The notes: generated by a model not told the origin, from the letters alone. Shown: positions 21,594 to 61,708, counted from the whole stretch's first letter. The stretch: DNA of 63,938 nt, filler included, from Raillietiella orientalis (GCA_036172245.1; 13 parts of 13 records of this genome joined end to end with filler, not necessarily neighbours in it); one strand, 5' to 3'. Made by a program: numbers and translations.

Positions 21594-22954
21594 TTCTCGA
21601 TGACGGACGCTTCCGCCGGTTCGCTCCCCACGCTGTTGACATTTTCAACAGTGGGTTGCTCGTCGGTAGCAGCGATTTCTACCTTGCGGCGTTCGGCGGG
21701 GACGCGTTCCACGACGACGCTGCATTCTTTTAAATTCTCGCTAACCTGCTGTTTTTTATTTTGGTAGGCGAGCTTTTTTCGATTCGTCGTTTTTTCTTCT
21801 TCGACTTTTTTCTTTTTCACAGTGACTTCTTGCTATTCCAACACCTGACCACTTTTGTCAATCTTTTCGGCATTCGTTGCCGGGGTGTCGGCTGAGGCCT
21901 GGACCACGAGAGTAAGTGCCACAGCTTGAGCGGCAGCCTTCGCCGCCAGTTTTTTCTGCAGCAGCCGCGCGCGTTTGTTTAGGTTCCTAGAGGAAATAAC
22001 GCGCACAGCGCATTGTGAACACACTTCCTTCGTGTGGCCCATTGTCCCGCATACCAGGCACTGTACGTTGGGGCACCTCCTTTTAAGGTGTCCAGACGTG
22101 TTGCAGGAGCAACAGTATTTGGGATTCCCCACGTACCAGAGGTCGACGCTTTCTCCGCCGACCACCAGTTTGTGGTGCAGGGTAGAGACCTCCCGAACGG
22201 TTACACGGGCAGCCCTGTGGCCGCACCGAACAGTGATATAGTCCTCGAAAGGACTAGGCCTTGTCCATACTGCATGGACCGTGCCTTCTTTTCCCAACGC
22301 GGCGAGTAACTGTTCTTTCCGCATCCGCGCGGTAACTCCTAAAAGGTGGACCACCATACTGTGGTGCGCCGTAACGGGAAGGAGCCTGCGTGTCCCTATA
22401 ACCACGGGGGTTGCAAGCAGACGTTGGGTCAGATCTGCATGTTTGCAGATCACCTCTACGTACTGCCCCCCTCTACGAATGGTCATAGCGCAGAGCTCCT
22501 CTTCTTTAACATCGAGAGCGCGCATCCCCTTTGAAAAGGCGCGCGCACTCTCAGCAGAATACAAATTTCGTACTTTGTAGAATAGTGATGCGTTATACTC
22601 CTCTTCCACATAGGCAGATAATTCCACCGCGGCTGCAGGCGATGGCGCGGACACGACAGCGCTCGACGCCCGCGCTGCAGCGGGGAACGGTTTTGTGGGG
22701 GTGGACGCCCTCACCTCCTTCGCCACTAGAGGCGACGTTGCCGCCGCCCCCTGGCACTCCACCATCTCTAGAGGCGACGTTGCCGCTGTCACCTGGAACT
22801 GCATTTCTTCAGGAGGCGACGTTTCCAACGCCCCCTGACACGTACTGGTGGTCGCATCAGGCATTGCTGCCTGATCGACCACCACCACACAAGAAGCCTA
22901 CACCTAGGGACGGTTCCCGGCACGAGGAGCAGCGAGGAAACACGTTCTCTCTAG
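21594..22954 (-). mobile_element. GC-rich LINE, intact 5' end + ORF1
   Basis: 5' end CTAGAGAGAACGTGTTTCC; ORF1 (ATG 22864, ORF 21833-22888) with CCSCNTSGHLKRRC and CLVCGTMGHTKEVC knuckles; premature stop at 21833. Confidence 0.9.
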
Positions 22955-22958
22955 ACAA

Positions 22959-25066
22959 CGTAAAGCATTCGACTGCGTCGACCAGAATCTCTTGCTGCCG
23001 CTTTTGGAACGCTTGGACTTCTCTGCGTCATTATTGGCCTATCTGCGCTCTAGGTGACGCGATTCTCAAATCAATGTTACTTTTAGCAGGCATACCGTTC
23101 ACGGCGTGCCGGTGCGACGTGGAATCCGGCAGGAAGACAGTCTTAGCCCCTTGCTCTTCAGTACCTACTTTGAGATGGTACTGAGAGCGTACAGGGAAAC
23201 CCTGGCGCACCTGCCTCATGAATGCGCCGGAACGCCTTCGGTTTCAGCATATGCGGACGACCTTCTGCTACTGCTCCCTATGTCCACCCCGGCTTCGGCG
23301 GTCGAGAAGTTCTTCGACCTGCTGAATCGAGGAACCGGGCTTACGGTTAAAAGAGCGAAGTCGTCCGTGATGCCAGATGGTGATGCGTGGGCAGGGAAGC
23401 AGGACTGGGTCCATTTGGGGATCCCCACGGTGAGGTACTTCAGGTACCTTGGTGTGCCGTTGGAGGACAACTCCCCTGCGGAAGCGTGGTCCGGTTGCCT
23501 TCAAAAAGTAGAGACGGCTGTCGGCCTGTTCCGAGGCGGCAGGTTTTTCTTGCCTGAACGGGCCGCGGTTTGGAACATGTTCTAAACTCCTCCCCTCCGT
23601 TCCCTGCTTTTTGTTTGTCCCCCCACAGAGAGGATCAAAACGCGGACAAAGGACCTCCTCCGTATCGCCCTTTGGGGCAACAGAAGGGCCCGAGTCCTCT
23701 TGAAGGACTTGTGGGCACCGCGTCGGGACGGTGGTCTCGGCCTCCTGACATTAAGCGGCTGGAGCTGCAGCTCCAGTTCCGGATTTTGGCACTTGTGCCG
23801 GAGTTGTGGTGCACCTGTTGGTGCGTCCCTGCACGTCTGCTCCTTCAGCAAGCCACCGACAAGACGGGACTTACGTCGTTTCTTGCACTCTATCAAAGCC
23901 GCATCAACCGATGTGGGCTTCAGCTACGAGGGGGGCTGCGCTGGCAAGGAAACATCAAGGATGGATCACCTGTCTCCCCGTGAACGGTAGTGCCTGGTTG
24001 CAGGAAACCGTTCGTACGTGGGAACAGTTAGGCATGCAACCCTCCCATCAGGAACGAAGGTTCCTGTTTGGGTGTTACAGAAGGTGCACGCTTTGTGAGA
24101 TCGTGGAGTATCCTAAGAAGAGAGCGTGGTCAGGAAGAACCCCCCTCGCTGCTGCGCTGGACTCCCTAGTGGAACAACAGCACAGCGATGTTGCGGAGAA
24201 GTGAGAGGTTACAATAAAAATCTCCGGGAAGGAGAAGAAGCAGAGAGAGTGGAAGACAAGCCAGCTAACTGATGCTGCGACCCCGAGTTCGCCTCCTAAT
24301 GGACTTCTGCGCTGGGGAGCGCTGCTGGATGTTCCGATTGAACATCTGAAGTGGCCCCCGTTTCTTATGAACACTTCCATCCTCCCCCTAAAATGGCAGA
24401 AGTCGACTTTCCTGTTGCAGCACTGGGGACTCCCCTGCAACGCCCGTCGACACCACTGGACCTGGGGAGCGGTGGATCCCAATTGTGTAAGGTGCGGGGA
24501 ACGGGAGTCCCTCCCCCACCTCCTAGTGGATTGTGTTGCCCTTCGGCCCCTTTGGTTCCGCTTTGCCGCGGCCATCGGTATCCCTTGCAGCAACCCCAGG
24601 GACGCACTAAAAGCCTTCTTCGTTGCCGACGCCCTGCGGCCAGCGTCCTCGATAGCAGCCTTGTGCTGCCTTCGTGGGATCGTCGCCGCCTGGAGCACGG
24701 CGACGGGAGGACCTAGCGATCAGGAAGCCATCCAGTGCGCCTCCGAATTCCTGAGGAGGGCGTCGCGATGGCCCCACCTGGATGTTCACAACAAACAAGA
24801 GCTTGTCAGCATCCTGAGAGGGATGATGCGGCCCCAGCAGCAACAGTGATCCCTTCCCGTTCCCTCCCACCCTTTGTTTTTTTTTTGTTTAGTTTTTTTG
24901 TTTTTCCCCTTTTCCCTGCTGCCTTGGTGGACCGTACCGGTCTAGAAACCGGTGAATTGGCAGGCGCCGTGGTTCTTAGCTTCCGGCTGGAGCATTGCCA
25001 CAGCCATTATTAATTTGTTTACAAAGTTTATTTTTTTAATAAACGACCCGGAGAAATCCGGTTGAA
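22959..25066 (+). mobile_element. GC-rich LINE, 3' part starting exactly at RT RKAFD
   Basis: Begins CGT AAA GCA TTC GAC; YADD in ORF 23106-23585; CVRCGERESLPHLLVDC; stop at 24849; 3' UTR ending AATAAACG-hairpin-TTGAA. Confidence 0.92.
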
Positions 25067-26682
25067 AATCGCATGCTTTGCGCAAGTCGACCGCGTCTGC
25101 AAAGGCTCCCGCCGAGTCCCTCCCACCCTCCATCCGGTGTTCCTGGTCAGAGGGGAGCGCAAGACTCCCTTGAACTTCCTGGAGAACGCGCTGTCGCAAC
25201 TGCCACCATGTGCTGGCGAGAAGCAGGTTTGACTCCATGCTTCGTCCGGGAACAGCATAGGTCTGCTCGGGACTCACCACGGAAGCGGCCACCCGCCTCA
25301 AACGCTCAGCCCACAACTTGGCATACAACTTTGCGTCCGCATTCACTACTGTGATGGGACGCCAGTTGCCAATGTTGCGTAAGTCTCCTGTCTTCGGTAG
25401 GAGACGTACTTTTGCTGACCGGAACGAGGCGGGAACTTCGCCGTGTTCGCGGATCAGCGCACTTAACCTGAGCACCAGGGGGGCCAGCTCTGGCGAGAAG
25501 TGTTTGTAAAACTCCGCGGGCAGCCTGTCCTCCCCTGGTGCCTTCCTGTTCTTCAGCCTGTTGATGGCGGAGACGACCTCCACCATCGTGAACGGTTCTC
25601 CGAACCAGAAACGATCCTCCTCCTTGAGCGCGGGGAGGCTATCCTGCAGCAGGCGCTGTGCGAAATGGCGCTCCGGTATTAGTGGCGCGTCCAAGGAGGA
25701 ATAAAACTTCCGCACGATGCGGCTTACCTGAGCTAGGCTGGAGCGTTCTTGGCCCTGATGTTCCAGCAAGCAGGCCGAGCCTGACTGCCAGGCCTGCCTC
25801 TCCGCCTCAGCTTTGAATTCCGCCAAGCGACGGACGTCAGGACGCCTGGAATACCTGCGGTTATGAAGGTAGGCCCTCTCGTTCCTGACCACATCGCCGA
25901 AGCTAGGCGGAAGACGTTCCAGGGGAAACTGGTCGCAAAACTCGCGGACTGAGCACGTCATTTCGTCCCAGTCCGCGAGCGTCTCAAGATAGAATCCTCG
26001 CAGGAAGGCGCGTAGAGGTTCCGCCGCTCTGCGAGGCGCAACCAGTCCCCTGGCAGGCGCCATGTTTTCAGGGGAGGGCCCTTATTCCGCGGATGCATCT
26101 CGAGCACGAGCCGTGGATGGTCGGACAGCTCTGCCGGGAGCGTTCCTCGAGTTCCCACTTTCGTGCACAATTGGTTGTCGAGGAACATGTGATCGATGTT
26201 CCGATCTCTCCCGGCATCACCGGCCAACAAGTTGCGCGCATTCATTGCTGCGCACAACTCGTTGACCAGTTGTGCTCGACTGCTGGGCGCACCTGCAAGC
26301 AGGAGGAGATTGAAGTCGCTCGCGATGAGGTGCGCCCGCCGTACGCTTGCTTCAGCCAACCAGTCTCGCCGCAGGGATTCGAAGAACGCAGTGCGTTCCT
26401 CGGCCCTGTGGCTGCTCACCGGAGCGTACAGGTTCGTCACCACGAAATCGATCGAGTCGGACCTCTTTAACGCAAGCTGCCCAACTCGACTGTCCTCGTC
26501 GAACCTGACGCTGCGCAGTGCGTTGTCGACGGCTGGCTTAAGCATAAACGCCACTCCGCAGGAGCGGTCGTTTCCGTTCCTCCACAGTAGCCGCCCTCCT
26601 GCGATGCTTTCGATTTCCTGGAAATCTCCTGCTCTGAGAACGTGCGTCTCTTGCAGGAGCACCAGGTTGAAGTCTCGCAGCA
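25067..26682 (-). pseudogene. LINE ORF2 endonuclease + RT N-terminus, cut at DLRKA(C)D
   Basis: ORFs 25958-26662 (LLQE, NLYAP, SDFN, IDH, SDH) and 24942-26063 (KAPGED, WRPIT, DAKL, DLRKACD). Confidence 0.9.
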
Positions 26683-26782
26683 NNNNNNNNNNNNNNNNNN
26701 NNNNNNNNNNNNNNNNNNNNNNNNNNTTAATTAATTAANNNNNNNNNNNNNNNNNNNNNNNNNNNNNNNNNNNNNNNNNNNN

Positions 26783-29097
26783 CGAGAAGGCGTTCCAAAC
26801 CGCGGCCCGTTCCGGCAAGAGAAACTTGCCTTCCAGGAATGGGCCGATCGCCGTCTCGACTTTTTGGAGGCAGCCGGACCACGGTTCCGCAGGGGAGTAG
26901 TCCCCCAACGGCACACGAAGGTACTCGAAGTACCTCACCGTGGGGATCCCCAAATGGACCCAGTCCTGCTGCCCTGCCCACGCCGCACGTACTGGCATCA
27001 CGGACGACTTCGCCCTGTTCACCGTAAGCCCGGTTCCTCGATTCAGCAGGTCGAAGAACTTCTTGACCGCGGAAGCCGGGGTGGACATAGGGTGCAGTAG
27101 CAGGTGGTCGTCCGCATTTGCTGAAACCGTAGGCGTTCCGGCGCATTCATGTGGCAGGTTAGCCAGTGTTTCCCTGTACGCTTTCAGCACCAACTCAAAG
27201 TAGGTACTGAAGAGCAAGGGGCTCAGGCTGTCTCCTTGCCGGATACCACTTCGCACCGGCACGCCGTAAACAGTATGCCTGCTGAAAGTAACATTGATTA
27301 GCGCATCGCGCCAGCTAGAGCGCAGATAGGCCAATAATGAGGCCGGGAAGCCCAAGCGTTTTAAAAGCTTCAGCAGTAGATTCTGGTCGACGCTCTCGAA
27401 TGCTTTACGCAAGTCGACAGCGACCGCAAGTGCTCCCTCCCCCATTCGACCATGCTTCGCATGACTGACGGACTCACCGGAATTCCCGGTGCGCATCAAG
27501 CCCCTTTCGTGTTGGAGCTCTAGCCAGGTGGAAGCGTGGAACAGGTTCGCCTCCATGCTTCGCCCTGGAACAGCATACGTCTGTTCCGGAATGACGAAGG
27601 CGTTTGCAACCCGTCCCAAACGCTCAGCTTAAACCTTATCTATCAACTTGGCATCCGCATTCACTATTGTGATGGGACTCCAGTACTTCATGCTCCTCAG
27701 ATCTCCTCACTTAGGAAGAAGCCGCAACTTTGCCGAACGAAACGAGGCGGGAACGTCACCTGTCTCGCGTATCAGCAAGGTGAGTTGATTTCCCAGGGGG
27801 GTTAGCTCAGCCATCAAAGTTTGTTAAAACTCCGCGGAGAGGCCGTCCTCCCCTGGAGCCTTTCGCCTCTTCAGCTTTCCGATGGCCGAGATGATCCCGC
27901 CCATCCTGAAAGACTCGTCGAGGGAATTTTTCTTCTCTTCCCAGATCGCAGGAGCGCTTTCCGGGAGCAGGATTCGTGAGAAATCCCGCTCGGGAGGCGT
28001 TCTTGCGTACAAGGAGGAGTTAAATCGCCGCAGCAGACCGCGGATCTGAGCGGGTGCCGAATGCTCCCGGCCCTGATCGTCCAGCAAGCAGGCCGATCCG
28101 GACTGCCTGGCTTGCCTCTCGGCTCTCGCTTTGTATTCCGCCAGCGTGCGGATGTCGTGGGTCCTGGCGTAACGACGGACGTGCAGGTAGGCTCGTTCGT
28201 TACGGACCCCGGTCCCAAATCCCGCAGGTAGGCGGTTCAGAGGGAACTGGTCGCAGAACTCCTGGACCGACCGTTTAAAGCGGTCCCAATCCTGAAGTGT
28301 CTGCATCCTAAAGCTCCGTATAAACGTGCGGAGATGTTCCGTCGCGTCCGGGAGCTTCAGCCAGTCCCCTGGCAAACGCAACGCTGACCAGGGGGGGGCC
28401 CTGTCGCGCGGATGGATTTCAATCACGATTGGGCGATGGTCGGAGAACTCGCACGGCATCTTGCAGCGCCTACACGAGTGCACAGGTGCTCGTCAAGGAA
28501 CACGTGTCCGATGTTGTCCTTTATCTTTGGTACACTGGCCAACAAATTACATGTGTGCACCGCCGCGCACACCTCGTTGACCAGGTCACGCTCGTGATTC
28601 GGCCCATTCGGTTTCAGACGAACGTTAAAATCGCCTGCAACCTGATGGGCATTCCGCACGCCTGCCTCGGTCAGCCAGTCGCGATATAGGGCGAGGAAAA
28701 ATTCTTTCCTGGCCCTCCTGTTCGTCAGGTCCGTTCCGCTCGGGGCGTAAACGTTCGTAACGATCAGGTCGATCGAGTCGGACCATCTGAGAGTCAGCTG
28801 AACGACACGACCGTGATCGTCGAACCGAACTCCACGTGCGGCGACCTCGATGGCGGGCCGAAGCAGGTAGGCGACAACACAACTTCTCGATATTCCACAC
28901 CGATACCACAGCCGCCCTCCGTTGATGCGTTCGATCTCCTGGGCTTGTTCTGCAGAGATCACATGGATCTCCTGCAGCAGCACAAGGTCGAACGATCCTA
29001 GAATGGCGGCCATGTCTCGTCTCCTGCCGGCGTCTGTCATGCAGTTCACGTTCCAAATGGCGATGCGCAGACGACGGCGGTAGGAGATTCCCGGCAT
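26783..29097 (-). pseudogene. LINE ORF2 (APE endonuclease + RT), frameshifted
   Basis: ORFs 28423-29097 (WNVN, LLQE, NVYAP, GDFN), 27824-28483 (SDH, KAPGEDG) and 26735-27619 (DLRKAFE, GIRQGD, NADD). Confidence 0.9.
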
Positions 29098-30814
29098 TAC
29101 TGCCGGGAAGATGACGCTGTGTGATAACGCGCCACTTCCGAGGCGGGTGAGATGACCATTAGGGTTTCAGCCTCCTCAGGCACCTTGGGTACCTTACCGT
29201 CTTCAACCCCCTCCATCTCCTCCGTGTCTGTGCGTGGTGGTCTCTCGGGTGACGATTCCTGGCATTCTCCCACGCTCATGGCACTTTCGCAGTCGGAAGT
29301 CATCTCCACGCCTTCGACCTGGAGAGGGGCTTTCAGGGGTTTGCTGGACTTCCTTCCAGCCTTCCGGCAGGGTGCCGCGGAGATGGAAACTTGGTTTCCG
29401 GCCTTCGCTTCGGGGTCGAAAGTTACCGAATCCTCGGTGGAGGCCGGACGCCTCACTGCCTTTTTGCCAGCCTTGGAGGGGTCTAGCTGCAACGATGCAG
29501 CCAGCTCCTCCGCCGCACGCTCGAAGGCGACGTCATCGATGACGGTCTCGATGACGGACGCTTCCGCCGGTTCGCTCCCCACGCTGTTGACATTTTCAAC
29601 AGTGGGTTGCTGGTCGGTAGCAGCGATTTCTACCTTGCGGCGTTCGGCGGGGACGCGTTCCACGACGACGCTGCATTCTTTCAAATTCTCCTAACCTGCT
29701 GTTTTTTATTTTGGTAGGCGAGCTTTTTTTCGATTCTTCGTTCTTTCTTCGACTTTTTTTTCTTTTTCGCTGTGACTTCTTGCCATTCCAACACCTGACC
29801 GCTTTTGTCAATCTTTTCGGCATTCGTTGTCGGGATGTTGGCTGAGGCCTCGACCACGGGAGTGGGTGGCACAGCTTGAGTGGCAGCCTTCGCTCCCAGT
29901 TTTTTGTGCAGCAGCCGCGCGCGTTTTTTTAGGTTCCTAGAGGAAATCACGCGCACAGCGGATTGTGAACACACTTCCTTCGTGTGGCCCATTGTCCCGC
30001 ATACCAGGCACTGTACGTTGGGGCACCTCCTTTTGAGGTGTCCCGACGTGTTGCAGAAGTTACAGTATTTGGGCTTCCAAACGTACCAGAGGTCGCCGCT
30101 TTCTCCGCCGACCATTAGTTTGTGAGGAAGGGTAGAGCCCTCCCGAACGGTTACACGGGCAGCCGTGAGGCCGCACTGAACTGTGGTATAGTCCTCGAAA
30201 AGACTAGGCTTGGTCCATACTGCATGGACCGTGCCTTGTTTTCCCAACGCGGCGCGTAACTGTTCTTTCCGCATCCGCGCGGTAACTCCTAAAAGGTGGA
30301 CCAGCATCCTGTGGTCCGCCGTAACGGGAAGGAGCCTGCATGTCCCCATTACCACGGGGGTTTTGAGGAGACGTTGGGCCAGATCTGCATGTTTGTAGAT
30401 CACCTCTACGTACTGCCCCCCGCTAGGAATGATCATAGCGCAGAGCTCCTCTTCTTTAACATCGAGAGCGTGCATTTCCTTCGAAAAGGCGCGCGCACTC
30501 TCAGCAGAATACAAATTTCCTACCTTGTAGAATAGTGATGGGTTATACCCCTCTTCGACATAGGCAGATAATTCCGTCGCGGCTGCAGGCGATGGCGCCG
30601 ATACGACAACGCTCCACGCCCGCGCTGCAGCGGGGACCGGTTTTGTGGGGGCGGACGCCCCCACCTCCTTCGCCACTGAAGGCGACGTTGCCGCCGCCCC
30701 CTGGCACTCCACCTTCTCTAGAGGCAACGTTGCCGCCGCCATCTGGCACTCCATTTCCTCAGGAGGCGACGTTGGAACCGCCCCCTGACACGTACTGGTG
30801 GTCGCGTCAGGCAT
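29097..30814 (-). pseudogene. LINE ORF1, one frameshift (~29690)
   Basis: ORFs 29681-30838 and 29097-29684; two CCHC knuckles; CSVVVER motif. Confidence 0.88.
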
Positions 30815-30908
30815 TGCTGCTTGATCGACCACCACCACACACGAAGCCTACACCTAGGGACGGTTCCCGGCACGAGGAGCACCGAGGAAACACGTCCGCT
30901 CTAGCCGA

Positions 30909-31744
30909 CGTAAAGCTTTCGACTTCGTCGACCAGGAGCTCCTTCTGGAGCTTCTGGAACGCATGGTTTTCCCGGCCGTGCTCCAGTCCTACCTGCGCTC
31001 CTGCTCGCGTAACGCGTCAATTAATATTGGTTTCAGCGGCCGGCAGGTGTACGGCTTGCCAGTCCGCCGCGGTATCCGGCAGGGTGACATCCTGAGCCCC
31101 TTGCTCTTCAGCATCTACTTCGAGATGGTGCTGAGGGCATACAGGGTAACTCTGGCAACCCTGCCGAGCTCGTGTCCCAGCACGCCTGCCGTGTCGGCCT
31201 ATGCAGACGATCTTCTGCTGCTGCTTCCCGGGTCCACACCGGCGAGTGCACTTGAGGACTTCTTCGAGTTGCTGCGCCGCGGGATGGGCCTGGAGGTGAA
31301 CAGGGCGAAGTCGTCCATGGTCTTCGTCGGTTCGGCGTGGGCTGGACGGTCGGACTGGATCCGCTTGGGGATATCCACGGGCAGGTGCTTCAAATACCTC
31401 GGCGTACCGTTGGGGGACTTCTGCGCAGCAGAAGCCTGGTCCGACCGTCTCCAAAAGGCAAGTTCTACTTGCAGGAACTGGCCGCGTTGTGAAACGCGTT
31501 TGCGGCTCCCCTCCTTCGCCCCTTACTTTTTGTTTGCCCCGCCCCTTTCTTTATTCGGAAACGAGCAGCGGGCCTCCTGAGGACAGTCCTTTGGGGCAAA
31601 GGGAGGTCCCGTGTGAGGCTCAAAGACTTGTGCGCTCCACGTAAGGACGGTGGACTTGGCGTACTTACGCTGGAGCGCATGGAACTACAACTTAGATCGA
31701 GGCAGCACAGGGCTGAAAGCGAGGCCGCTATGGGCAGGACCCCG
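30909..31744 (+). pseudogene. LINE ORF2 RT fragment starting exactly at RKAFD
   Basis: Begins CGT AAA GCT TTC GAC; GIRQGD, YADD and KYLG in ORF 30963-31580. Confidence 0.9.
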
Positions 31745-31844
31745 NNNNNNNNNNNNNNNNNNNNNNNNNNNNNNNNNNNNNNNNNNNNTTAATTAATTAA
31801 NNNNNNNNNNNNNNNNNNNNNNNNNNNNNNNNNNNNNNNNNNNN

Positions 31845-33002: not shown

Positions 33003-33004
33003 AC

Positions 33005-33929
33005 GCTCCGGAATCTCCAGGACTGGGACCTTTTTAAGGAATCGGTCCGCGAGTTCTGGGAGCAATTCCCCCTGGATCGCCTGCCCCCCGGATTCGGCGA
33101 GGTTGCTCGCAACCATTTGGCCTATTTACAGGCTCGTAGGTACGAGTGAACCTCTAATGTGCGTCGCCTGGTTGAGTACCGCTCCGGGGCCGAACGCCAT
33201 GCCTGGCAATCCGGGTCGTTCAGCTTGCTGGACGACAAGGGCCGGGAATGTTCGTCCCCGGCGTCGGTACAGCATCTCGTGCGGAGTTTTTATTCTTCCC
33301 TTCACGCCAGGGAGCCCCCGGATCGAGACGCTTTTCGACGCTTGCTTCCGGATGGCGCCCCGGCAATAGGGGAGGAGGAGATGGAAAGCCTCGACGAGCA
33401 TTTTACCACCGGCGAAATTGTCGCCGGTATCAAAAGCCTCAAGAGGCGTAAGGCGCCAGCAAAGGGGGCATGCCCGCGGAGTTCTTTCAGAGATTCGCAT
33501 AGGAGCTGGACCCCCTGGTGCTCGAATTGACAAAGCGAATCCGAGACGAAGGCGATGTTCCCTCCTTGTTTCGGTCAGCTAGGGTGAGGCTCCTTCCGAA
33601 AGAAGGAGATTTCAGTAAACTCAGCATCTGGCGTCCGATCACAATTGTGAACACGGACGTTAAGCTAATCACCCGACTGTGGACTTCGCGTCTGAGGCAG
33701 GTGTCAAATTCCATAATTAGCCCGGAGCAGAGTTACGCTGTTCTCGGGCGAAGTATGGAGGACAACCTCTTCTTCGCGAGCACATGGATGCACGCGCAGT
33801 GGAGTAAGAAAGAAGGGAAAGGGAAAATTTGCAACCCTACTTTGAGGTCGCAAGTGGGACAGGGTAGGGATTCTCATGCGGGAAAGGGGGCCTTAGCGAT
33901 CGCAATCGACCTCCATAAGGCATTCGATT
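33005..33929 (+). pseudogene. LINE ORF2 internal fragment (LQDWD to DLHKAFD), bounded by two antisense insertions
   Basis: LQDWD..LPPGFG, ORFs 33159-33530 and 33518-33949 (WRPIT, DVKL, DLHKAFD). Confidence 0.9.
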
Positions 33930-36275
33930 TTCACCAGGATCTCTCCTAGGCGTTTATTGTAAAATAAACATTTACAAAGACGTGCGGTGGCTGGACCATT
34001 ACTCCAGCCACGCACGAGGAAACACAGAGCCTGCCGGGTCACCGGTTCGCAGACCGGTACGGTTCACCGCGGCAGCAGGGGGAAGGGGGAAAAAAAAAAA
34101 CAAAAAAAAAAAAAGAAAAGTTGGGAGGCTAAGGGAAGGGATCACAGTTGCTGGTGGGGCCGTTGCATCCTTTGCAGGATGCCGGTAAGCTCATTCTGTA
34201 TTCCTGGATCCAGGTGGGGCCATCGATACGCCCTCCTCAGGAACTGGGAAGCAGGCTGGATGGCACCCTGGTCGCGTTGTCCTCCCGTGGCCTTGCTCCA
34301 AGCGGTGACGATCCCGCGTAGGCAGCACAAAGCTGCTAACGAGGCCGCTGGCCGAAGGGCGTCGGCAACGAAGAGGTCTTTCAGTGCGTCCCTGGGGTTG
34401 CCGCAGAGGATTCCGATGGCCGCGACATAGCGAAACCAAAGGGACCAAAGGGCAACACTGTCCACTAGCAGGTGGGGAAGGCACTCCCGTTCCCCACACC
34501 TGACGCAATCGGAGTCCACCGCTTTCCTGGTCCAGTGGTGACGGCGGGCGTTGCAGGGGAGTCCTCAGTGCTGCAAGAGGAGAGCCGACTCCTGCCATTT
34601 TAAGGAGAGGGCGGAAGTATTCATGAGCACCGGGGGCCACTTCAGATGTTCAATGGGAACATCGAGCTGCGCGCCCCAGCGCAGAAGTCCATTGGGAGGC
34701 GTACTCGGGGTCGCAGCGTCTGTTAACTGGCCCGTCTTCCACTCTCCTATCTTCTTCTTCTTTCCGGAGATTGTTACTGTAACCACCCACATCGCCGCAA
34801 CATCGCTGTCCAGATCTTCCATCAGGGAGGGCAGCGCAGCAGCGAGGGGGGTTCTTCCTGCATACGCTCTCTTCTTTGGATCCTCCAGGATCTCGCGGAG
34901 CGTGCAACTTCTGTAACCCCCAAACAGGAACCTTCGTTGCTGTTGGGAGCGTTGCATGCCGAACTTTCCCCACGTTCGAACGGTTTCCTGCAGCCAGGCA
35001 CTACCGTTAAACGGGCGACAGGTGAGCAATCCTGGGTTTTTCCGATACAGCGCAGTCACCCTCCGTAGCTGGAGTCCGCATCGGTTGACGCGGCGACGGA
35101 GTGCAAGAAACGACGTCAGTCCCGTCTTGCCGGTGGCTTGCTGAATTAGGAGACGTGCAGGGACGCACCAACAGGTGCACCACAACTCTGGAACGAGTGC
35201 CGATCAGCAGAACTGGAGCTGAAGCTCCAGCCGCTCCAGCGTCAGGAGGCCCAGACCACCATCCCGACGAGGAGCGCACAAGTCCTTTAAGCGGACTCGG
35301 GCCCTCCCGTTGCCCCGAAGGGCGATACGGAGGAGGTCCTTCGATCGCTTTTTGATCCTCTCTGTGGGGGGGCAAACAAAAAGCAGGGAGCGGAGGAGAG
35401 GAGACGCGAACGTGTTCCAAACCGCGGCCCCTTTCAGGCAGGAAAGACCTGCCGCCTCGGAACGGGCCGATCGCCGTCTCTACATTTTGGAGGCAGCCGG
35501 ACCACGCTTTCGCAGGGGAGTAGTCCCCCAACGGCACACCAAGGTACTTGAAGTACCTCACCGTGGGGATCCCCAAACGGACACAGTTCTGCTGCCCTGC
35601 CCACGCCGCACCAAGTGGCATCACGGACGACTCCGCCCTGTTCACCGTAAGTCCGGTTCCCCGATGCAGCAGGTCGAGGAACTCCTCGACCGTCGAAGCC
35701 GGGGTGGACATAGGGAGTAGCAGCAGAAGGTCGTTTGCGTATGCTGAAACGGCCGGCGTACCGGCACAGTCGTGCGGCAGGTTCGCCAGAGTATCCCTGT
35801 ACGCTCTCAGTACCAACTCAAAGTAGATACTGAAGAGCAAGGGGCTCAGGCTGTCTCCCCGCCGGATCCCATGCCGCACCGGCACGCCGTGCACGGTCTG
35901 ACCGCTGAAAGTAATATTGATGAGCGCGTCGCGCCAGCAGGAGCGCAGATAGGCCGCTAATGAGGCCGAGAAGCCCAAGCGTTCCAGAAGCTCCAGAAGG
36001 AGATTCTGGTCGACGCAATCGAATGCTTTTCGCAAGTCGATTGCGACCTCGAGGGTTCCCTCCATCCCGACCATCCAACTCCTTGCCGGCGCACTCACCG
36101 GAATTTCGGCTGCGCACCAAGCTCTTTTCATGTTGGAGCTATTGCCAGGTAGGAGCGTGGAACAGGTTCGGCTCCATTTTACGCCCGGGAACAGCATATG
36201 TCTGTTCCGGGCTGATGAAGATGTTGGCAACCCGTCCCAGACGCTCTGCCCACATCTTGGCTATTAACTTGGCGT
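33930..36275 (-). mobile_element. GC-rich LINE, 3' part from RT DAKLI to 3' end
   Basis: DLRKAFD, YAND (degenerate YADD), CVRCGERECLPHLLVD; stop at 34142; 3' UTR and AATAAACG-hairpin end at 33958-33930. Confidence 0.92.
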
Positions 36276-36789: not shown

Positions 36790-37228
36790 NNNNNNNNNNN
36801 NNNNNNNNNNNNNNNNNNNNNNNNNNNNNNNNNTTAATTAATTAANNNNNNNNNNNNNNNNNNNNNNNNNNNNNNNNNNNNNNNNNNNNGAAAGCTAAAG
36901 GTGTCTCCAGCTTGTGAGCCCGAATCAACTATAAATACCTGTTTACCTGACGCAGCCTAAAGAGAGCTACATCGGATACTCCTCGAGGTTGATGGTGGTG
37001 TTCCCAAGACTTCCATTAAGTTAATAAGCTTAGTGGAACTTTTGATCTTAAAGATAGAAACGATCTCTCCTTGAAGGATTTTTTTGACCACGGTTTAAAA
37101 TCTACCTGCAGAGGAGCAACGTTGGTTTCAGCTCTACCTAGCCCGAATAAACCGTGGCTGAGGGGTGGTCTAGGACAAACCCTGCTAGCCTAATTTTCAC
37201 AGCAGGCATCTCATCGTCGTCTCTAAAT

Positions 37229-38296
37229 ATGAACTACGCCGCCGCTCTGAAACAAAGCGCGCCACGTTCAAGCGACTTCAACATTGGCGATCGCGTTGGC
37301 ACAGTGTCCAATTTTAAAGAAGGGCTTCCATGCGTACACTTTCGAATTCCAAGCTTAACATTCAATGCAGTTAAAGACATATACTCAGGTCTCTTTAACG
37401 CAAAAATCGCTTTCCACACAATCAAGGCCATAATCCCGCATGCAGCAGGTGTCACTATATACAGTGAAAACGAAGACACCATTCACACTCTAAGTACGGA
37501 AGGATTCCACTACAAAGGCAAACTCGTACACGGCAACAGCGAACAAAAATTTACATACGTTTATATACAGGGTGTTAACCCGTACACCACGTGCGAGGAC
37601 ATCCGCAACTTCTTCGGGCAGTTCGGAAAAGTTGCTGACATTCAGCATTGTAGTGTCACGAATGACCCTAATCTGGCCAACCTGTATACTGGCAGATATA
37701 GGGTCAAGATTCAACTTGACGAAAACACAGACATTCCAATGAGAGCCCAAATTGACCAACTTTCAACCAACGTTCAAATTAATTACACGAAGCAGCCTCC
37801 GTTCTGCTCCCACTATCTCACCTTCGGGCACAGGCGTGCGAATTGTACTGAAATACGGTGTGCAATTTGCAAACTAACAGGCAACAGGGCGGACACTTGT
37901 ACTCAAGTACGATGTTCTTTCTGTAGAAAGATAGGACATAAGTCCCGGGAATGTCCTGAATACCACGACTGGATCGCTCCTATCAACACACAAGAAGTAC
38001 CAACCCCACAAATTCAAAACGTTGATACAGCAAATACTCTCATCGATAAGATAGCCACTGAAACCTCGCTTCCAGAACCACAGAAGAAAGACGCCACCCA
38101 AACAAGAAACCAGACCACACCAAAGATAGTTCTTCAACACTTACCCAAAAGCGAAATACAAAACATAACTTCCTTACCGATCCCAGATGTAGAAGAAACG
38201 GACTCAGACACAAGTGCAACACCTGATACAGATGGCAGCACACCTTCGAGGTCTCGTAGCAAGAGACCAAAAAAACAAAAACTCAAAAAACGATGA
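37229..38296 (+). CDS. LINE ORF1 protein (RRM-like region + three CCHC-type knuckles, two degenerate)
   Basis: Open frame with probable ATG at 37229; VYIQGV..IRNFFGQFGKV; CSHYLTFGHRRANC, CAICKLTGNRADTC and CSFCRKIGHKSREC. Confidence 0.88.
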   Translation: MNYAAALKQSAPRSSDFNIGDRVGTVSNFKEGLPCVHFRIPSLTFNAVKDIYSGLFNAKIAFHTIKAIIPHAAGVTIYSENEDTIHTLSTEGFHYKGKLVHGNSEQKFTYVYIQGVNPYTTCEDIRNFFGQFGKVADIQHCSVTNDPNLANLYTGRYRVKIQLDENTDIPMRAQIDQLSTNVQINYTKQPPFCSHYLTFGHRRANCTEIRCAICKLTGNRADTCTQVRCSFCRKIGHKSRECPEYHDWIAPINTQEVPTPQIQNVDTANTLIDKIATETSLPEPQKKDATQTRNQTTPKIVLQHLPKSEIQNITSLPIPDVEETDSDTSATPDTDGSTPSRSRSKRPKKQKLKKR

Positions 38297-41200
38297 ACTC
38301 CGTAACATTATTAAATGCACTTCCACGCATCGACTTGGCCCACATTAACATTAACGGATTAACGAATTTGAATAAAAGACATACACTACTCACAACAATC
38401 AAGAATGCACACATATGCGTGCTTACAGAAACACACGCACCATCTTCGGCCGCAATCGCACATATAGAAAAAGAATTCCACGGGAAAGCTATCTACTCTC
38501 ACGGATATCAGAACACAAGCGGTGTGATGATATTGCTGAAAACAACACTCATACCGGCGGTGCGCGAGATACAAACTTTCACAAAAGGGCGATTAATGAG
38601 CGTCCGTTTTGCATGGTCGAACAACATATCCATCTGTATAATTGCAGCCTACGGGCCTCAACAGAGAAAACTATTCTTTGCAAAACAAATTCGGGAATTC
38701 CTCAAATCACTAGAAAGCGTCGGAACCTTGTTCCTGATTGCAGGAGACTTAAACGTAGACCTCATGCACCCCACACACACCAAACTTGCAACCAGAAATG
38801 CATACCAACGGACACTTCAGGAGATGGACATGCACATTATAAAGTTCGAGAAAACCAGGAAATACGGTATCGACCATATAATTGTATCTTCCACCCTCCG
38901 CACACGCATCAGGAACGCGATAGAAACGCGGAAACTTTTCAGCGACCACCCATTACAAACAGCTACCATTATCACACAAAACCCTAGGAAAAACGTAGCT
39001 ATACATGGTCTCTGCGGTATTCCCCAATGGGTACAGGAAGCCGAGGCAACTCAGCAACTCATCGGAGGATTACTTGCGGAAATCCACATCACCAAATCCC
39101 AAGACTGGGACAACATGAAACACATGATCACAACGTTGCTAACATGGTGCAAAGACGTCATTAGGAAACCTACAAAAAATAGTATCAGACATCAAAGAAT
39201 GGCACACGAAAGATACGATCAACGGCGCATGCAAACAGACCCACAAGTACCAGAAATTAAAAACCTAGAAACAGAAATGTTTGACCTATTCCATGACGGA
39301 GAACACATAAGTGACCAAGAAGAAATTAGAAAGACGATCGCGAAAGAATACAAAACGCACTTCCAAAAAACGAATATAAACCGAAACACAGAGAAACAAT
39401 TCATAGAGAGTCTACGCAACAAGCTAACTGTTCATCAACAGCAGCAATTGCAAGCACCTTTCTCGATGGACGAAGTAAAAGAAGCCTTTCTAGGGCTGAA
39501 TCGGAATGCCGCACCGGGACCCGATGGCATTACGCACCTACACTACGCTTCCCACACAACACAATACAGCAGATTGATGTGGCAACTTACCCAAGCTATA
39601 CACTCCGGCCAACCCCTACCACACTCCTTCCACAACAGTAAAGCAAAACTTGTCCCAAAAAAAGGGGACCCCAAACTCCTAACCAACTGGAGACCGATTT
39701 CAGTATTAAATATCGACTCCAAATGGTTTGCCAAATTATGGGCAAATAGACTACGTAAAATCCTTCCCTCTCTCATCACACCGGAACACACGTGCGGAAT
39801 ACAACACAGACAAGGGGCAGACAATGTTCATACGGTGCAAAACCTAATAGGACTTGCAACGAAAAGCAACATTCCAGTAGCGCTGGTAAGCACCGATCTT
39901 TCCAAAGCGTTTGATTGCGTATCACACGACACACTCCTTCTCATACTTCGAAAATTCGCATTCCCTGAAAACTTCTGTACCTATACACAAGAAATACTGA
40001 GGAATGCAAGCATTAACATAACAGTAAACGGGGCACCCACTTCCAAAATACAGATGGAAAGAGGGGTTCGGCAAGGAGATGCTCTGAGCCCACTCCTCTT
40101 TACACTATACACACAAACGATCACAGATCTCATATACAGAAAGAAACTGTTAGACGGAACTCGAAACCTAGGATCAACACTAACACATTTGGCATACGCG
40201 GACGATTTTATATTTTTCCTCACAAGTCAGCGAGACATCCACAACCTCAGGTTTTTATTTCAACAAATAGAACAAGGGCTAGGCCTCTATCTGAATATTC
40301 AAAAAACAAAGGCGCTGACGTACGCCGTGTTCCCCGACCGATGGCTAGAAGAAGCAAACATAAACATATGCACAACACTCAATTATTTGGGAGTGACTTT
40401 AGGAGAAACAAAACAATTGCAGCCTTTCCGAGAAGCTTTAGAGACGATACGCAGGAAAAGCAGGGTGTTCGTGAACTCCACACTTACGCTCCATGAGAAA
40501 GCTAAAGCGTGGAACACGTACCTCCTGCCCATCTTAACGTATCAACAGCAATTTCATAATATTCGCGCGTACCAACACAAAACCATAAACGCACTAATCC
40601 GAGACCTCCTATGGAGACGCGGAAAACCGAAAGTCAAAATAATGACTCTCTGTTTGCCGACGACCCAGGGAGGCCTAGGCGTGATACATCCCACTGCGGC
40701 AGCCACCAAGTACCACTTGAAAAACGTAATACGTATTGCCGAGAACTGGCAGTCAGTTCACTTCGATTTTTTACGTGAATACGGAAAAAAATACCTAGGA
40801 ACCGACGGATTGTCATCATTACTTACAATTCCGACACGAGGAATCGCAAATTTAAGTCCCACGTGGTCTCTGAAAAGACGCATTTTTGCGAAAGCCCAAC
40901 TTTTAGCCGTGCCGAAAACACGCGAAAACTGGGAAGCAGAGTCGGTCAGCATACTATTAAAATTTCACAACTTCCCACGCGTTATAGAAAAATGGTGCCT
41001 TTCACACCCTAAAACAAACATACACCGCATACTGAACCAAAGCAACCAAGTATCTATCATCCGTAAAAGATTACAACACATACTAGAAGAAACCAACTGG
41101 ACATATAGCACCAAACAATACGAGATATACATCAAAGAACAAAACCAATACACAAAAGCGACCAAAGCAAACATTACATCAAAAATCCCAACTACACATC

Positions 41201-41690
41201 AGTCATGCAACCATTGGAAGGAAACCCTCAATATACACAATATTGAAAATCAGGTGGTATACGCAACCACGCATAGATCGTGGTTGCCACCGGAAGTCAA
41301 GGATACAACCTTTCTCTTCTTTCAGAACGGTCTAAGATGCAGGGCAAGATGCACCACTGGGACACGTCGCAGGCAACCCAGCCTACGTGCAACCAATGCG
41401 GGGAAAAAGAAACTACCGCTCATCTCTTCGAACGCAAACACAATGAACCGAAATGGCACACCGTGCAAAAAGTACTCCAGTTACCAGTAGAACCGGCGCG
41501 ACATACCATTCGGAGGCTCTGTACTTCGGTAAACGGTGCTCCTGTCCTGAATCCACTGCAGAGGTTCTTTATATGCACCTACATCGAAGCAACAATGCGG
41601 AAATGGCACCGCATCCACCAAGGAAGAACAGCATCTGCAATCAACATTGCAGTTGGCCTGGTGTTAAGAGAGAGGGCGATAAGACAATGA
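38293..41690 (+). CDS. LINE ORF2 polyprotein (APE endonuclease, RT, zinc knuckle); single frameshift near 41348
   Basis: 1065-aa ORF 38293-41490 with NING, LTET, AYGP, GDLN, IDH, SDH, APGPDG, WRPIS, DLSKAFD, GVRQGD, YADD and YLG. The C-terminus HHW..CNQCGEKETTAHLFE continues in ORF 41280-41690. Confidence 0.93.
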
Positions 41691-41922
41691 AAGAATATCC
41701 CCATTGCGGTAATAAGCAAACTTATGGACCGATTACGCGAGCATAGACTGATGTAATAACAGAACTAAAATAAACTTCCCTCACCGCAATTGCGGACTGA
41801 GGGCCCTNNNNNNNNNNNNNNNNNNNNNNNNNNNNNNNNNNNNNNNNNNNNTTAATTAATTAANNNNNNNNNNNNNNNNNNNNNNNNNNNNNNNNNNNNN
41901 NNNNNNNGATGCTTTGCGCGCT

Positions 41923-43112
41923 CTAGGGCGGACGTGTTTTCTCGGTGCTCCTCGTGCCAGGAAGTCTCCCCCAGTGCAAGCGTCGTGTGGTTCGGTGGTC
42001 GATCAGGCAGCGTTGCCTGACGCGACCACCAGGGATGGCCAGGGGGCAGCGGAAACGCCGCGCCCAGAGGCGATGGAGAGCCAGGGGGCGGCGGCAACGT
42101 CGCCCCCAGAGGCGATGGAGGTGGGGGCATTCGCCCCCACAGAATCGGTCCCCGCTGCAGCGCGGGCGTGGAGCGCCGTTGTGTCGGCGCCATCGCCTGC
42201 AGCCGCGGCGGAATTGTCGGCCTATGTAGAGGAGACGTACAACCCCTCATTGTTCTACAAGGTAGGCAATTTATATTCTTTAGAGAGTGGGCGCGCCTTC
42301 TCGAAGGGCATGCGCGCTTTCGATGTGAAAGAGGAGGAGCTAAGCGCTATGACCATCCGCAGCGGGGGTGAGTAGGTTGAGGTCATCTGCAAACATGCAA
42401 AGCTGGCCCAACGACTGCTTAAAACCTTTGTTGTGATGGAGACACTGAAGCTCCTCCCAAATACGGCGGAATGCAGTATGGTAGCCCACCTGTTAGGTGT
42501 AAGCGCACGAATGCGCAAAGAAGAGGCTCGCGCCGCTCTGGAACAGTTCGGAACGGTGCACGCGCAGTGGACGAAAGTTACTCCTTCCGAGGACTACACG
42601 TTGCTGCAACACGGCCTCACGGCAGAACGCGTGACCGTTCGGGAGGGCTGCACTCTTTTCCACAAACTGGTGGTCGAGGGCGAAACCGATGACTTCTGGT
42701 ATGTGGGGAAGCCGAAATACTGTGGCTTCTGCAATACGTAGGGCCACCTTAAAAAGACGTGTCCCAACGTGCAGTGCCAAGTATGCGGCACAATGGGACA
42801 CACGAGGGAGGTGTGCCCAAAAGCAGCAGTGCGGGTGGTTTCCAAGAGAAACCTTAAAAAACGCGCCCGGCTGCTGCAGAAGATGCTGGCGGCGAAAGCT
42901 GCTGTCAAGGCTGTGCCACCCGCGTCCAAGTCCCAGGCCGCATGGAGACCCCAGCGAACAACGCCGAACCAGTCGGAGAAAGTAGCCAGGAGCCTGTGTG
43001 GCAGCTGGCAACAGGCGAAAAAAAAAAAAGAACGAAGGTTAGAGAAAAAGCTCGCGTACCGCCAAAAAAAACAGCACGCAAGCGAGCAAATTAAAGAGTG
43101 CAGCGTTATCGT
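41923..43112 (+). mobile_element. GC-rich LINE, intact 5' end + ORF1 cut at CSVIV
   Basis: 5' end CTAGGGCGGACGTGTTTTC; ORF1 pieces 41914-42375, 42433-42741 and 42769-43119; same family as 21594-22954 and 29097-30904. Confidence 0.9.
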
Positions 43113-45556: not shown

Positions 45557-45567
45557 ACGGTCGCGTA

Positions 45568-58512: not shown

Positions 58513-58596
58513 CGCACGGACGTGTACTGTGTTGCTCCTCGAGCGTGATTCCTGTCCGTCTTTTTGTGTGTGGTGGGCCCGAGTGCGTCCACTGGG

Positions 58597-61597: not shown

Positions 61598-61708
61598 NNN
61601 NNNNNNNNNNNNNNNNNNNNNNNNNNNNNNNNNNNNNNNNNTTAATTAATTAANNNNNNNNNNNNNNNNNNNNNNNNNNNNNNNNNNNNNNNNNNNNGAA
61701 GTTGATAG

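What the first reader, a model, noticed from the sequence alone, without database searches (positions are those of the whole stretch)
22940..41935. Target site 1: five junctions at the RT D-L-x-K-A-F-D codons in identical register
Three 5' junctions have exactly 4 nt between the element's terminal CTAG and the host Arg codon: 22951 CTAG-acaa-CGTAAAGCATTCGAC, 30901 CTAG-ccga-CGTAAAGCTTTCGAC, and (reverse strand) 41926 CTAG-agcg-CGCAAAGCATC. All three inserts have the same ORF1 type (DQAAMPDATT-like). Two 3' junctions both read host GAT then TTTCA: 33926 GAT-TTTCACCAGG and (reverse strand) 25070 GAT-TTTCAACCGG. The implied TSD is CGYAAAGCWTTCGAY(T), 15-16 bp. Established: D..KAFD carries the first catalytic Asp of non-LTR RTs. 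Unoccupied sites exist near 590, 27400, 36020, 45170 and 63795. Caveat: the 41908 flank is only 11 bp of host, and no single insertion is seen with both ends.
Basis: seen in the sequence. Interest (0 to 1): 0.88.

Follow-up and report, generated by a model that had tools for sequence, protein, structure and literature searches.

The report
LINE that targets LINE reverse-transcriptase codons
A family of jumping genes (LINE retrotransposons) repeatedly inserted itself, backwards and at exactly the same nucleotide, into the codons for a conserved reverse-transcriptase motif of other copies of its own and sister families, so it lives inside its own relatives.

Summary
The window is 13 short pieces joined by artificial spacers. 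Eight GC-rich pieces hold only nested copies of related LINEs with an APE endonuclease and an L1-like reverse transcriptase (RT).

One lineage ("alpha") shows five termini, all at the R/H-K-A-F-D codons of a host RT and all antisense to the host:
- Three 5' ends read CTAG, four extra nt, then host CGY AAA GC.
- Two 3' ends read host ...GAT, then the reverse complement of ...TGAAA.

Host coordinates at the two junction types overlap by 15-16 bp. This is the implied target-site duplication (TSD), though no insertion is seen with both ends.

The junctions are not copies of one event:
- Inserts are 92% and 84% identical where their host flanks are 71% and 67%.
- The host flanks differ with dN/dS 0.28-0.35 at dS about 1, and they fall in different, supported clades.
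- Alpha hit an alpha copy, so it targets its own lineage.

Best reading: a sequence-specific LINE using canonical target-primed reverse transcription. Endonuclease specificity is inferred, not shown.

Sister lineages use at least three other fixed sites in the same element body. No close relatives were found outside the window, so sampling is small. I rate it a new variant of a known kind (Tx1L, R1, Zepp).

The parts
21594..22954 (-). Alpha copy c5E3: 5' end (CTAG at 22954), 5'UTR and ORF1 with two CCHC knuckles. Runs off the piece.
   Evidence: 92.1% identical to the c6 copy over 1363 nt. ORF1 is 21833-22897.
22955..22958 (.). Four extra nt (acaa in host orientation) at the 5' junction.
   Evidence: They match neither the host nor the element.
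22959..25067 (+). Alpha copy c5E2, from the RKAFD codons to its 3' end (...CCGGTTGAAA). It is the host of c5E3 at 22959-22973 and is itself inserted into c5E1.
   Evidence: 89.6% identical to c6E over 540 nt. Alpha clade support 100/99.
25068..26682 (-). Host c5E1: APE and RT N-half, ending at RKACD (GAT = 25070-25068), which abuts the c5E2 3' end.
   Evidence: It belongs to a different lineage from the c7 host.
26783..30904 (-). Alpha copy c6E: 5' end at 30904, ORF1 at 30847-29681, APE and RT down to the piece end. Its own KAFD site (27395-27409) is unoccupied.
30905..30908 (.). Four extra nt (ccga) at the 5' junction.
30909..31744 (+). Host c6h: RT C-half starting exactly at RKAFD.
   Evidence: 71.3% identical to the c5 host. 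dN/dS 0.28. Groups with c9u at 95/96.
33003..33928 (+). Host c7h: end of the APE-RT linker and RT N-half, ending at HKAFD (GAT = 33926-33928).
   Evidence: Groups with c1 at 99/99.
33929..36272 (-). Alpha copy c7E: its 3' end (...CCTGGTGAAA) lies at 33929 and the copy runs up through RT. Its own KAFD site (36018-36032) is unoccupied. It is cut at 36272 by another element.
41908..41918 (-). Eleven nt of host (CGCAAAGCATC) at the start of piece c9.
41919..41922 (.). Four extra nt (agcg in host orientation).
41923..43112 (+). Alpha-related copy c9E: 5' end and ORF1. It is cut at 43112 by another element's 3' end.
   Evidence: 73% identical to c6E by BLAST and 77-78% by global alignment. dN/dS 0.27 against c6E.
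588..602 (+). Unoccupied site in c1 (CACAAGGCGTTCGAC).
45165..45179 (-). Unoccupied site in c9 (TGCAAAGCGTTCGAC).
63790..63804 (-). Unoccupied site in c13 (CATAAAGCGTTCGAC).

Best explanation
The GC-rich pieces hold nested copies of one clade of non-LTR retrotransposons, each about 5.6 kb. The element layout is: a 5'UTR of about 90 nt starting at CTAG, ORF1 with two CCHC knuckles, ORF2 with APE endonuclease and L1-like RT, and a 3'UTR ending in two hairpins and ...TGAAA. There is no poly(A).

One lineage (alpha) is a sequence-specific retrotransposon. Its target is the 15-16 bp that encode R/H-K-A-F-D in the RT of copies of this clade, including its own lineage.

Inferred mechanism is canonical target-primed reverse transcription:
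1. The element's endonuclease nicks the host copy's sense strand right after the GAY (Asp) codon.
2. That 3'-OH primes cDNA synthesis from the 3' end of the element RNA, so the element ends up antisense to the host.
3. The other strand is cut 15 bp away, at the Leu|Arg codon boundary.
4. The cDNA end, carrying about 4 extra nt, is joined there, and fill-in duplicates CGYAAAGCWTTCGAY.

Shown: the anatomy, the register, the orientation and the independence of the events. Inferred: the nick positions, the TSD and the idea that the endonuclease reads the sequence.
For: Element type:
- RVT_1 E=5.9e-20 and Exo_endo_phos E=2e-12.
- The best solved relative of the RT is human L1 ORF2p, E=9.7e-36, against R2 at 1e-9 to 1e-16.
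- The APE resembles ExoIII and L1-EN.
- CCHC knuckles are present in ORF1.

Register: 3 of 3 alpha 5' ends and 2 of 2 alpha 3' ends lie at the same host codons and antisense. Host coordinates overlap by 15 nt.

Independence of the events:
- Insert against host identity is 91.7 versus 71.3% and 84.4 versus 67.4%.
- The identity change-point for c5/c6 is at 22986, with support interval 22944-22992 that contains the junction.
- Host pairs have dN/dS 0.28 and 0.35 at dS about 1. c9E against c6E has dN/dS 0.27.
- The trees put the hosts in four different places: c5E2 inside the alpha clade (100/99), c6h with c9u (95/96), c7h with c1 (99/99), and c5E1 apart.

Occupied and empty sites coexist among copies 86-90% alike: c5E2 is occupied while c6E and c7E are empty.

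The same architecture, with precise 5' and 3' junctions and short TSD-like overlaps, recurs for sister lineages at other fixed sites. This fits lineage-specific endonuclease specificities, as is known in the R1 and Tx1 clades (PMC4640811, passages).

A 15-bp TSD is what human L1 makes (PMC4245944, abstract in the listing).
Against: - No insertion is seen with both ends, because the pieces (5.3 kb or less) are shorter than the element.
- Only five termini are sampled, from one window.
- The c9 host flank is 11 nt and lacks one T of TTC.
- For c5/c7 the identity change-point falls at 24944 (support 24922-24978). That is the ORF2-end/3'UTR boundary, about 125 nt before the junction, because the 3'UTRs are themselves only about 68% alike. 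The step is therefore not exactly at the junction there.
- c9's 5' junction and c7's 3' junction could in principle be the two ends of one insertion, which would give four events rather than five.
- All alpha copies have broken ORF2 frames and differ by 8-16%. Nothing shows current activity.
- No copies were found outside the window with which to enlarge the sample.
- Endonuclease specificity is not demonstrated.
Confidence: 0.8

Rival explanations
1. Targeting is guided by homology rather than by protein recognition of 15 bp. The element RNA is sense to every resident copy. It pairs with the antisense strand of a resident LINE as an R-loop, the displaced sense strand is nicked at a preferred spot, and that strand primes reverse transcription. 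This would automatically give LINE-only targets and antisense orientation.
For: All 15 junctions catalogued in the eight GC-rich pieces are LINE-in-LINE, and 14 of 15 are antisense. The KAFD region is locally the best conserved nucleotide stretch between lineages.
Against: Hosts are only 65-75% identical to alpha overall, which is poor for a stable R-loop. The nucleotide-exact register in four host lineages points to local sequence reading. One junction is sense (c10, about 51131). The antisense excess may be survivorship: a sense nest forms direct repeats that recombination collapses (inference).
Confidence: 0.11
2. The five junctions descend from one or two ancient insertions. The composite (insert plus host) was later copied by segmental duplication.
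For: c5/c6 and c5/c7 align continuously across their junctions (85.7% over 1915 nt and 77.9% over 3020 nt).
Against: Identity drops by 17-20 points from the insert side to the host side. The host flanks differ with dN/dS about 0.3 at dS about 1 and lie in different supported clades. The 4-nt fillers differ. c7E is empty at the site where c5E2 is occupied.
Confidence: 0.03
3. Insertion into LINE arrays is only regionally biased. The apparent site reflects hot spots of a loosely specific endonuclease plus survivorship.
For: At least six junction positions exist in the element body. The delta copies have 5' junctions at two different host positions, about A2608 and about A2795.
Against: Within the alpha lineage, 5 of 5 termini are at one register to the nucleotide, with a constant 4-nt filler. 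Sites 3 and 5 also show matching 5' and 3' registers.
Confidence: 0.04
4. The junctions are assembly chimeras between repeats.
For: The pieces are short, repeat-only contigs of unknown assembly method.
Against: Chimeras form at shared sequence. Here complete element termini abut antisense host DNA, with unshared filler, five times in diverged copies. Contigs of an independent run (X1) show the analogous junction at another site (c6 27640).
Confidence: 0.02

Closest known systems
Tx1L of Xenopus and the Tx1 clade (Keno, Mutsu, Kibi, Koshi, Dewa)
   Same: APE-type, L1-group LINEs with strict target specificity. Tx1L inserts into a specific sequence inside another transposon, Tx1D (PMC1950540, passage; PMC4640811, passages). 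ORF1 carries CCHC knuckles (the Tx1 ORF1 type is recalled).
   Different: The target here is a protein-coding stretch of a LINE RT, including the element's own lineage, hit in antisense. The Tx1 targets named in those passages are a DNA transposon and U2 snRNA genes; their other targets (5S rRNA genes, microsatellites) are recalled. Clade membership by RT phylogeny could not be tested because no reference sequences are held.
Zepp / ZeppL LINEs of green algae
   Same: [quoted passage not shown]
   Different: Zepp arrays are described as tandem arrays made mostly of 5'-truncated 3' ends. Zepp and L1-1_CR have (A)n tails (PMC3747384, Table 3 footnote). Here the copies have full 5' ends and no poly(A), lie antisense, and use a nucleotide-exact site. 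The 1997 Zepp paper is not held, so whether Zepp has a fixed internal site was not checked.
R1 and R2 of arthropod rDNA
   Same: Sequence-specific LINEs with precise 3' junctions, short TSDs or 5' junction variation, and extra nt at the 5' junction. The R1 endonuclease cuts both strands specifically (PMC1919474, abstract).
   Different: Their target is a host multicopy gene (28S rDNA), not a transposon's own coding sequence. R2 uses a restriction-like endonuclease.

Membership tests
APE-type non-LTR retrotransposon (LINE), L1 group | Reverse transcriptase domain of the non-LTR type | tested here: met
   RVT_1 E=5.9e-20. Best PDB match is human L1 ORF2p, E=9.7e-36.
APE-type non-LTR retrotransposon (LINE), L1 group | Apurinic-like endonuclease N-terminal to the RT in ORF2 | tested here: met
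   Exo_endo_phos E=2e-12. ExoIII and L1-EN matches. The order APE then RT is seen on c6, c5 and c12.
APE-type non-LTR retrotransposon (LINE), L1 group | ORF1 with a nucleic-acid-binding module (CCHC and/or RRM) | tested here: inconclusive
   Two CX2CX4HX4C knuckles found by regex, but 0 Pfam families for ORF1 at E<=0.01.
APE-type non-LTR retrotransposon (LINE), L1 group | 3' poly(A) tail (typical of L1 proper) | tested here: not met
   All six 3' ends stop at ...TGAAA, TGAGAA, TGATAA, TGGCAA or TAATAA directly at the host DNA.
Sequence-specific LINE | Independent insertions at the same nucleotide position and in the same orientation | tested here: met
   5 of 5 alpha termini, from at least 4 independent events.
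Sequence-specific LINE | The same TSD flanking both ends of single insertions | not testable with these tools
   The pieces are shorter than the element. The 15-16 bp overlap is inferred from different events.
Sequence-specific LINE | Endonuclease cleaves the target sequence specifically | not testable with these tools
   This needs a biochemical assay.
Tx1 clade | RT/EN phylogeny places the element with Tx1, Keno and relatives | not testable with these tools
   No Repbase or reference Tx1 sequences are available. Named database hits are 33% identical or less.
Zepp / ZeppL | Nested insertion into existing copies of the family | tested here: met
   All 15 junctions are LINE-in-LINE.
Zepp / ZeppL | Poly(A) tail, and tandem arrays of 5'-truncated 3' ends | tested here: not met
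   No poly(A). Eight full-length 5' ends were found, and 14 of 15 junctions are antisense.
5' self-cleaving ribozyme LINEs (R2, RTE, L1Tc type) | HDV-like or hammerhead ribozyme at the 5' end | tested here: not met
   No Rfam family at gathering score in the window. Nothing relevant at E<=10 around the c6 5' end.

The most novel reading that the evidence does not exclude
The family is a closed, self-referential ecosystem whose target choice is homology-guided. The element RNA finds resident copies by pairing with their antisense strand. Each sister lineage's endonuclease then nicks the displaced sense strand at its own preferred motif: the KAFD, LPxGFG and AKLI codons, and the CGTCGTCGT after ORF1. 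That would make this an RNA-guided retrotransposon of the APE/L1 type. It would explain in one stroke the LINE-only targets, the near-universal antisense orientation and the several fixed sites.
Probability: 0.1. Interest if true: 0.9.

Novelty: new variant of a known kind. Interest (0 to 1): 0.72.

Why it matters
Sequence-specific LINEs are known to shelter in rDNA, telomeres, snRNA genes, microsatellites and one DNA transposon. Here the shelter is the retrotransposon's own coding sequence, at codons next to the RT active site. A functional host copy cannot change those codons freely, so the target cannot easily escape.

Together with the sister lineages that use other fixed sites in the same element, this suggests niche partitioning among LINE lineages that parasitise each other and build self-contained nested arrays without touching host genes.

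It also offers natural examples of APE endonucleases with long, distinct recognition sites within one closely related clade. That is the kind of material sought for understanding, and re-engineering, LINE target choice.

My literature searches found no report of a LINE targeting RT codons. Repbase Reports and most subscription journals are outside the library searched.

Tried and rejected
- Whole genome: not held.
- Sequencing runs: one run (X1) holds 8% of the words of piece c6.
- Its Logan contigs, laid on c6, are 200-450 nt long, and only 6 of 150 loose ends were printed. This gives no information for the KAFD site. One printed loose end (27640) matched a different site.
I repeated it on one piece.
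- Metagenome scan with an RT alignment: 80 loci, all 33% identical or less, so no further copies.
- As a control, 0 of 31 RT frames with KAFD in those loci are broken at KAFD. An earlier N-half tblastn screen was too insensitive to use.
- Genome-contig scan for the alpha 5' end: 0 matches.
- Protein searches: the only close relative is P0001, 69% and 59% identical in the two searches and uninterrupted at KAFD.
- Cluster look-up: switched off.
- Earlier findings of this scan: nothing.
- Rfam: nothing.
- A tree rooted with the AT-rich c8 LINE was unresolved. The unrooted trees were used instead.
- c10's 92% match to c6E over 129 nt turned out to be a stretch conserved across lineages, not evidence that c10 is alpha.
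- Global identities between distant 5' regions (values of 75.0 and 85.7) are alignment artefacts and were ignored.
- The 1997 Zepp paper is not held.


Full report
**What the window is.** The 63,938 bases are not one locus. They are 13 pieces of 2.2-5.3 kb, sorted by length and joined by N44-TTAATTAATTAA-N44 spacers. No whole genome is held.
- Eight pieces are GC-rich (57-63%): c1 1-5345, c5 21594-26682, c6 26783-31744, c7 31845-36789, c9 41908-46798, c10 46899-51770, c12 56817-61597 and c13 61698-63938. They consist of mutually related sequence at 65-93% identity.
- The other pieces are satellites, a 2.6-kb tandem repeat and one AT-rich LINE.
- The finding therefore spans five unlinked pieces.

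**What the repeated element is.** The translated frames carry three parts:
- An RT: RVT_1 E=5.9e-20. The best solved relative is human L1 ORF2p, E=9.7e-36, well ahead of R2.
- An APE-type endonuclease upstream of the RT: Exo_endo_phos E=2e-12, with ExoIII and L1-EN matches.
- An ORF1 with two CX2CX4HX4C knuckles but no Pfam match.

I mapped every piece onto two reference copies. Reference A is the reverse strand of c6 30904-26783. Reference B is c1 1-2700. The resulting anatomy is:
- a 5' end CTAGRGMGRACGTGT...;
- a 5'UTR of about 90 nt;
- ORF1, then a spacer of about 490 nt;
- ORF2 (APE then RT, with a C-terminal region that has a weak zf-RVT match);
- a 3'UTR ending in a GTTTATT...AATAAAC hairpin, a GC hairpin and a 5-6 nt tail, with no poly(A).

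No ribozyme or other Rfam family is present. All copies have broken ORF2 frames.

**The observation.** All five junctions are as reported.
- In host orientation, the three 5' junctions read ...rc(5'UTR)CTAG + acaa/ccga/agcg + CGT AAA GCA TTC GAC / CGT AAA GCT TTC GAC / CGC AAA GCA TC(end of piece).
- The two 3' junctions read CGC AAA GCA TGC GAT + TTTCAACCGG... and CAT AAG GCA TTC GAT + TTTCACCAGG..., that is, the reverse complement of the element's 3' end.
- In every case the inserted element is antisense to the host RT.
- The host resumes at the Arg/His codon at 5' junctions and stops after the Asp codon at 3' junctions. The overlap is 15 nt, or 16 if the ambiguous T is counted.
- Five empty sites exist.

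- c5 versus c6 (5' junctions): the inserts are 91.7% identical (1088 of 1187) and the host flanks 71.3% (382 of 536). The likelihood change-point is at 22986, with a support interval of 22944-22992 that contains the junction.
- c5 versus c7 (3' junctions): the insert side is 84.4% (1763 of 2090) and the host side 67.4% (577 of 856).
- For c5/c7 the change-point falls about 125 nt before the junction, at the ORF2/3'UTR boundary, because the two 3'UTRs are only about 68% alike. That unevenness is itself a sign that the two inserts diverged as functional lineages rather than as one dead copy.
- The host pairs differ with dN/dS 0.28 (c6h versus c5E2) and 0.35 (c5E1 versus c7h) at dS about 1. Such constrained divergence cannot arise after an RT has been split at its active-site region.
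- The c9 insert differs from the c6 insert with dN/dS 0.27.
- In trees, c5E2, c6E and c7E form the alpha clade (100/99). c6h groups with c9u (95/96), c7h with c1 (99/99), and c5E1 stands apart.

Alpha therefore hit hosts of four different lineages at one register, one of them an alpha copy (c5E2). At least four events are independent, and probably five. The only pair I cannot separate is c9's 5' end and c7's 3' end, whose 11 shared TSD positions differ at 3-4 places.

**Mechanism.** The geometry is that of canonical target-primed reverse transcription (inference).
- The host sense strand ends ...TTCGAT-3' exactly where the cDNA of the element's 3' end begins.
- The other junction lies 15 nt away on the other strand.
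- 15 bp is the TSD length reported for human L1 (PMC4245944, abstract seen in the listing).
- Four extra nucleotides sit at each 5' junction. They match neither partner and are unexplained. Non-templated addition by the RT is the usual reading (recalled).
- That the APE domain reads the 15-bp sequence is inferred by analogy with R1Bm and Tx1L (PMC1919474 abstract; PMC1950540 passage).

**Surroundings: more fixed sites.** The same pieces hold further LINE-in-LINE junctions belonging to sister lineages. Over the last 1500 nt, beta = c1, c10 and c13 at 76-77% identity to each other. Gamma = the minus-strand element of c9 (called c9u or c9g in the calls). Alpha and beta are 67% alike.
- Site 2 (L-P-x-G-F-G codons): 3' junctions at 2698|2699 and 48509|48510, in hosts of different lineages. 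The inserts are 77% identical and the hosts 67.5%, with the change-point at 2696. A copy 92.8% identical to the c10 host is empty at this site.
- Site 3 (CGTCGTCGT just after the ORF1 stop): a 3' junction at 43112|43113 and a 5' junction at 58512|58513, sharing a 9-nt register.
- Site 5 (A-K-L-I codons, GCCAAGTTGATAG):
  - a 3' junction at 61708|61709;
  - a 5' junction at 36272|36273;
  - two contigs of the independent run X1 with an element 3' end abutting c6 27640.
- Single 5' junctions: near 33000, at 5030 (a 5'-truncated copy) and near 45560.
- One junction, near 51131, is in sense orientation.

In all, 14 of 15 junctions are antisense, and none of the 15 involves non-LINE DNA. I cannot tell whether the antisense excess is mechanistic or due to survivorship. 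Sense nests would form direct repeats that recombination removes.

**Search for more copies.**
- Protein searches found one close relative (P0001, 69% identical, KAFD uninterrupted).
- The metagenome scan returned only distant LINEs at 33% identity or less. None of 31 KAFD-bearing RT frames among them is broken at KAFD.
- The genome-contig scan for the alpha 5' end found nothing.
- The single sequencing run with related sequence is kept as very short contigs and was uninformative for this site.

The evidence therefore rests on this window alone.

**Comparison with what is known.**
- Target-specific LINEs are well known. Their targets are listed as rRNA, tRNA and snRNA genes, spliced-leader exons, microsatellites, telomeric repeats and transposons (PMC5035012 and PMC4640811, passages).
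- The APE-type specific families are placed mainly in the Tx1 and R1 clades.
- Tx1L targets the DNA transposon Tx1D.
- Zepp and ZeppL LINEs of green algae form nested clusters by targeting existing copies (PMC8226300 and PMC3446292, passages). They are described as poly(A)-tailed, 5'-truncated tandem arrays.
- The present case works like a Tx1/R1-type sequence-specific LINE and has a Zepp-like habit of living in its own family. It differs in its target (RT motif codons of its own clade), its antisense orientation, its full-length precise ends without poly(A), and the several lineage-specific sites.
- Clade membership could not be tested for lack of reference sequences.
- Five full-text searches found no description of a LINE targeting RT codons. 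Repbase Reports and most subscription journals are not in that library.

**Verdict.**
- Confidence is 0.8 that this is recurrent, site-specific, antisense self-targeting insertion by TPRT.
- Still open: the TSD on single insertions, the endonuclease specificity and genome-wide exclusivity.

Noticed in passing
window 2698|2699 and 48509|48510: Second fixed site. Beta-lineage 3' ends (...GGGTGAGAA and ...GGGTGATAA) abut antisense hosts right after the L-P-x-G-F-G codons. The two hosts belong to different lineages. A copy 92.8% identical to the c10 host (c5, about 25895) is empty at this site.
   Followed up: partly
window 43112|43113, 58512|58513, about 51131: Third site, at CGTCGTCGT just after the ORF1 stop. 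One 3' junction and one 5' junction share a 9-nt register. Nearby is the only sense-oriented junction seen: in c10 the host ORF1b-like frame ends at ...ctgcag, followed by the next element's 5' end.
   Followed up: partly
window 61698-61709, 36260-36285, and c6 27640-27650: Another site, at the A-K-L-I codons of the RT (GCCAAGTTGATAG). It shows a 3' junction in c13, a 5' junction in c7, and two contigs of run X1 with an element 3' end abutting the same position of a c6-like copy. The implied TSD is about 10-12 bp.
   Followed up: partly
window about 32998-33007, 5030, about 45560: Three further antisense 5' junctions at other host positions. Two of them belong to 93%-identical elements but lie at different host coordinates, and one of those two copies is 5'-truncated. 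Not every lineage is equally precise.
   Followed up: partly
window 25023-25067, 33929-33973, 2654-2698, 48465-48509, 61709-61753: All of these 3' ends lack poly(A). Four of the five share a two-hairpin architecture: GTTTATT-loop-AATAAAC, then a GC stem-loop whose arms co-vary between lineages, then a 5-6 nt tail. The c13 end folded with the GC stem-loop only. This is probably the RT recognition signal of a 'stringent' LINE.
   Followed up: partly
window 37151-41490: An apparently intact AT-rich (44% GC) L1-like LINE with open ORF1 (381 codons, weak RRM and CCHC matches) and ORF2 (1076 codons: APE, RT, and L1 ORF2p at E=1.1e-40). It is only distantly related to the GC-rich clade.
   Followed up: partly
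window 10835-16116, 16222-21485, 51873-56716, 5446-10734: Three satellite arrays with periods of 275, 278 and 278 bp (92-94% matches, about 42% GC; c3 and c4 are 74% alike in opposite orientation). There is also a 2655-bp unit present twice in tandem (95.9% identical). None has a long ORF.
   Followed up: no
window 36469-36643: A 96-bp (32-codon) repeat, 1.8 copies, in the N-terminal ORF1 region of the element that cuts c7E.
   Followed up: no
whole window: The window is a concatenation of 13 length-sorted pieces with artificial stop-in-all-frames spacers. Distances and adjacency between pieces are meaningless.
   Followed up: yes
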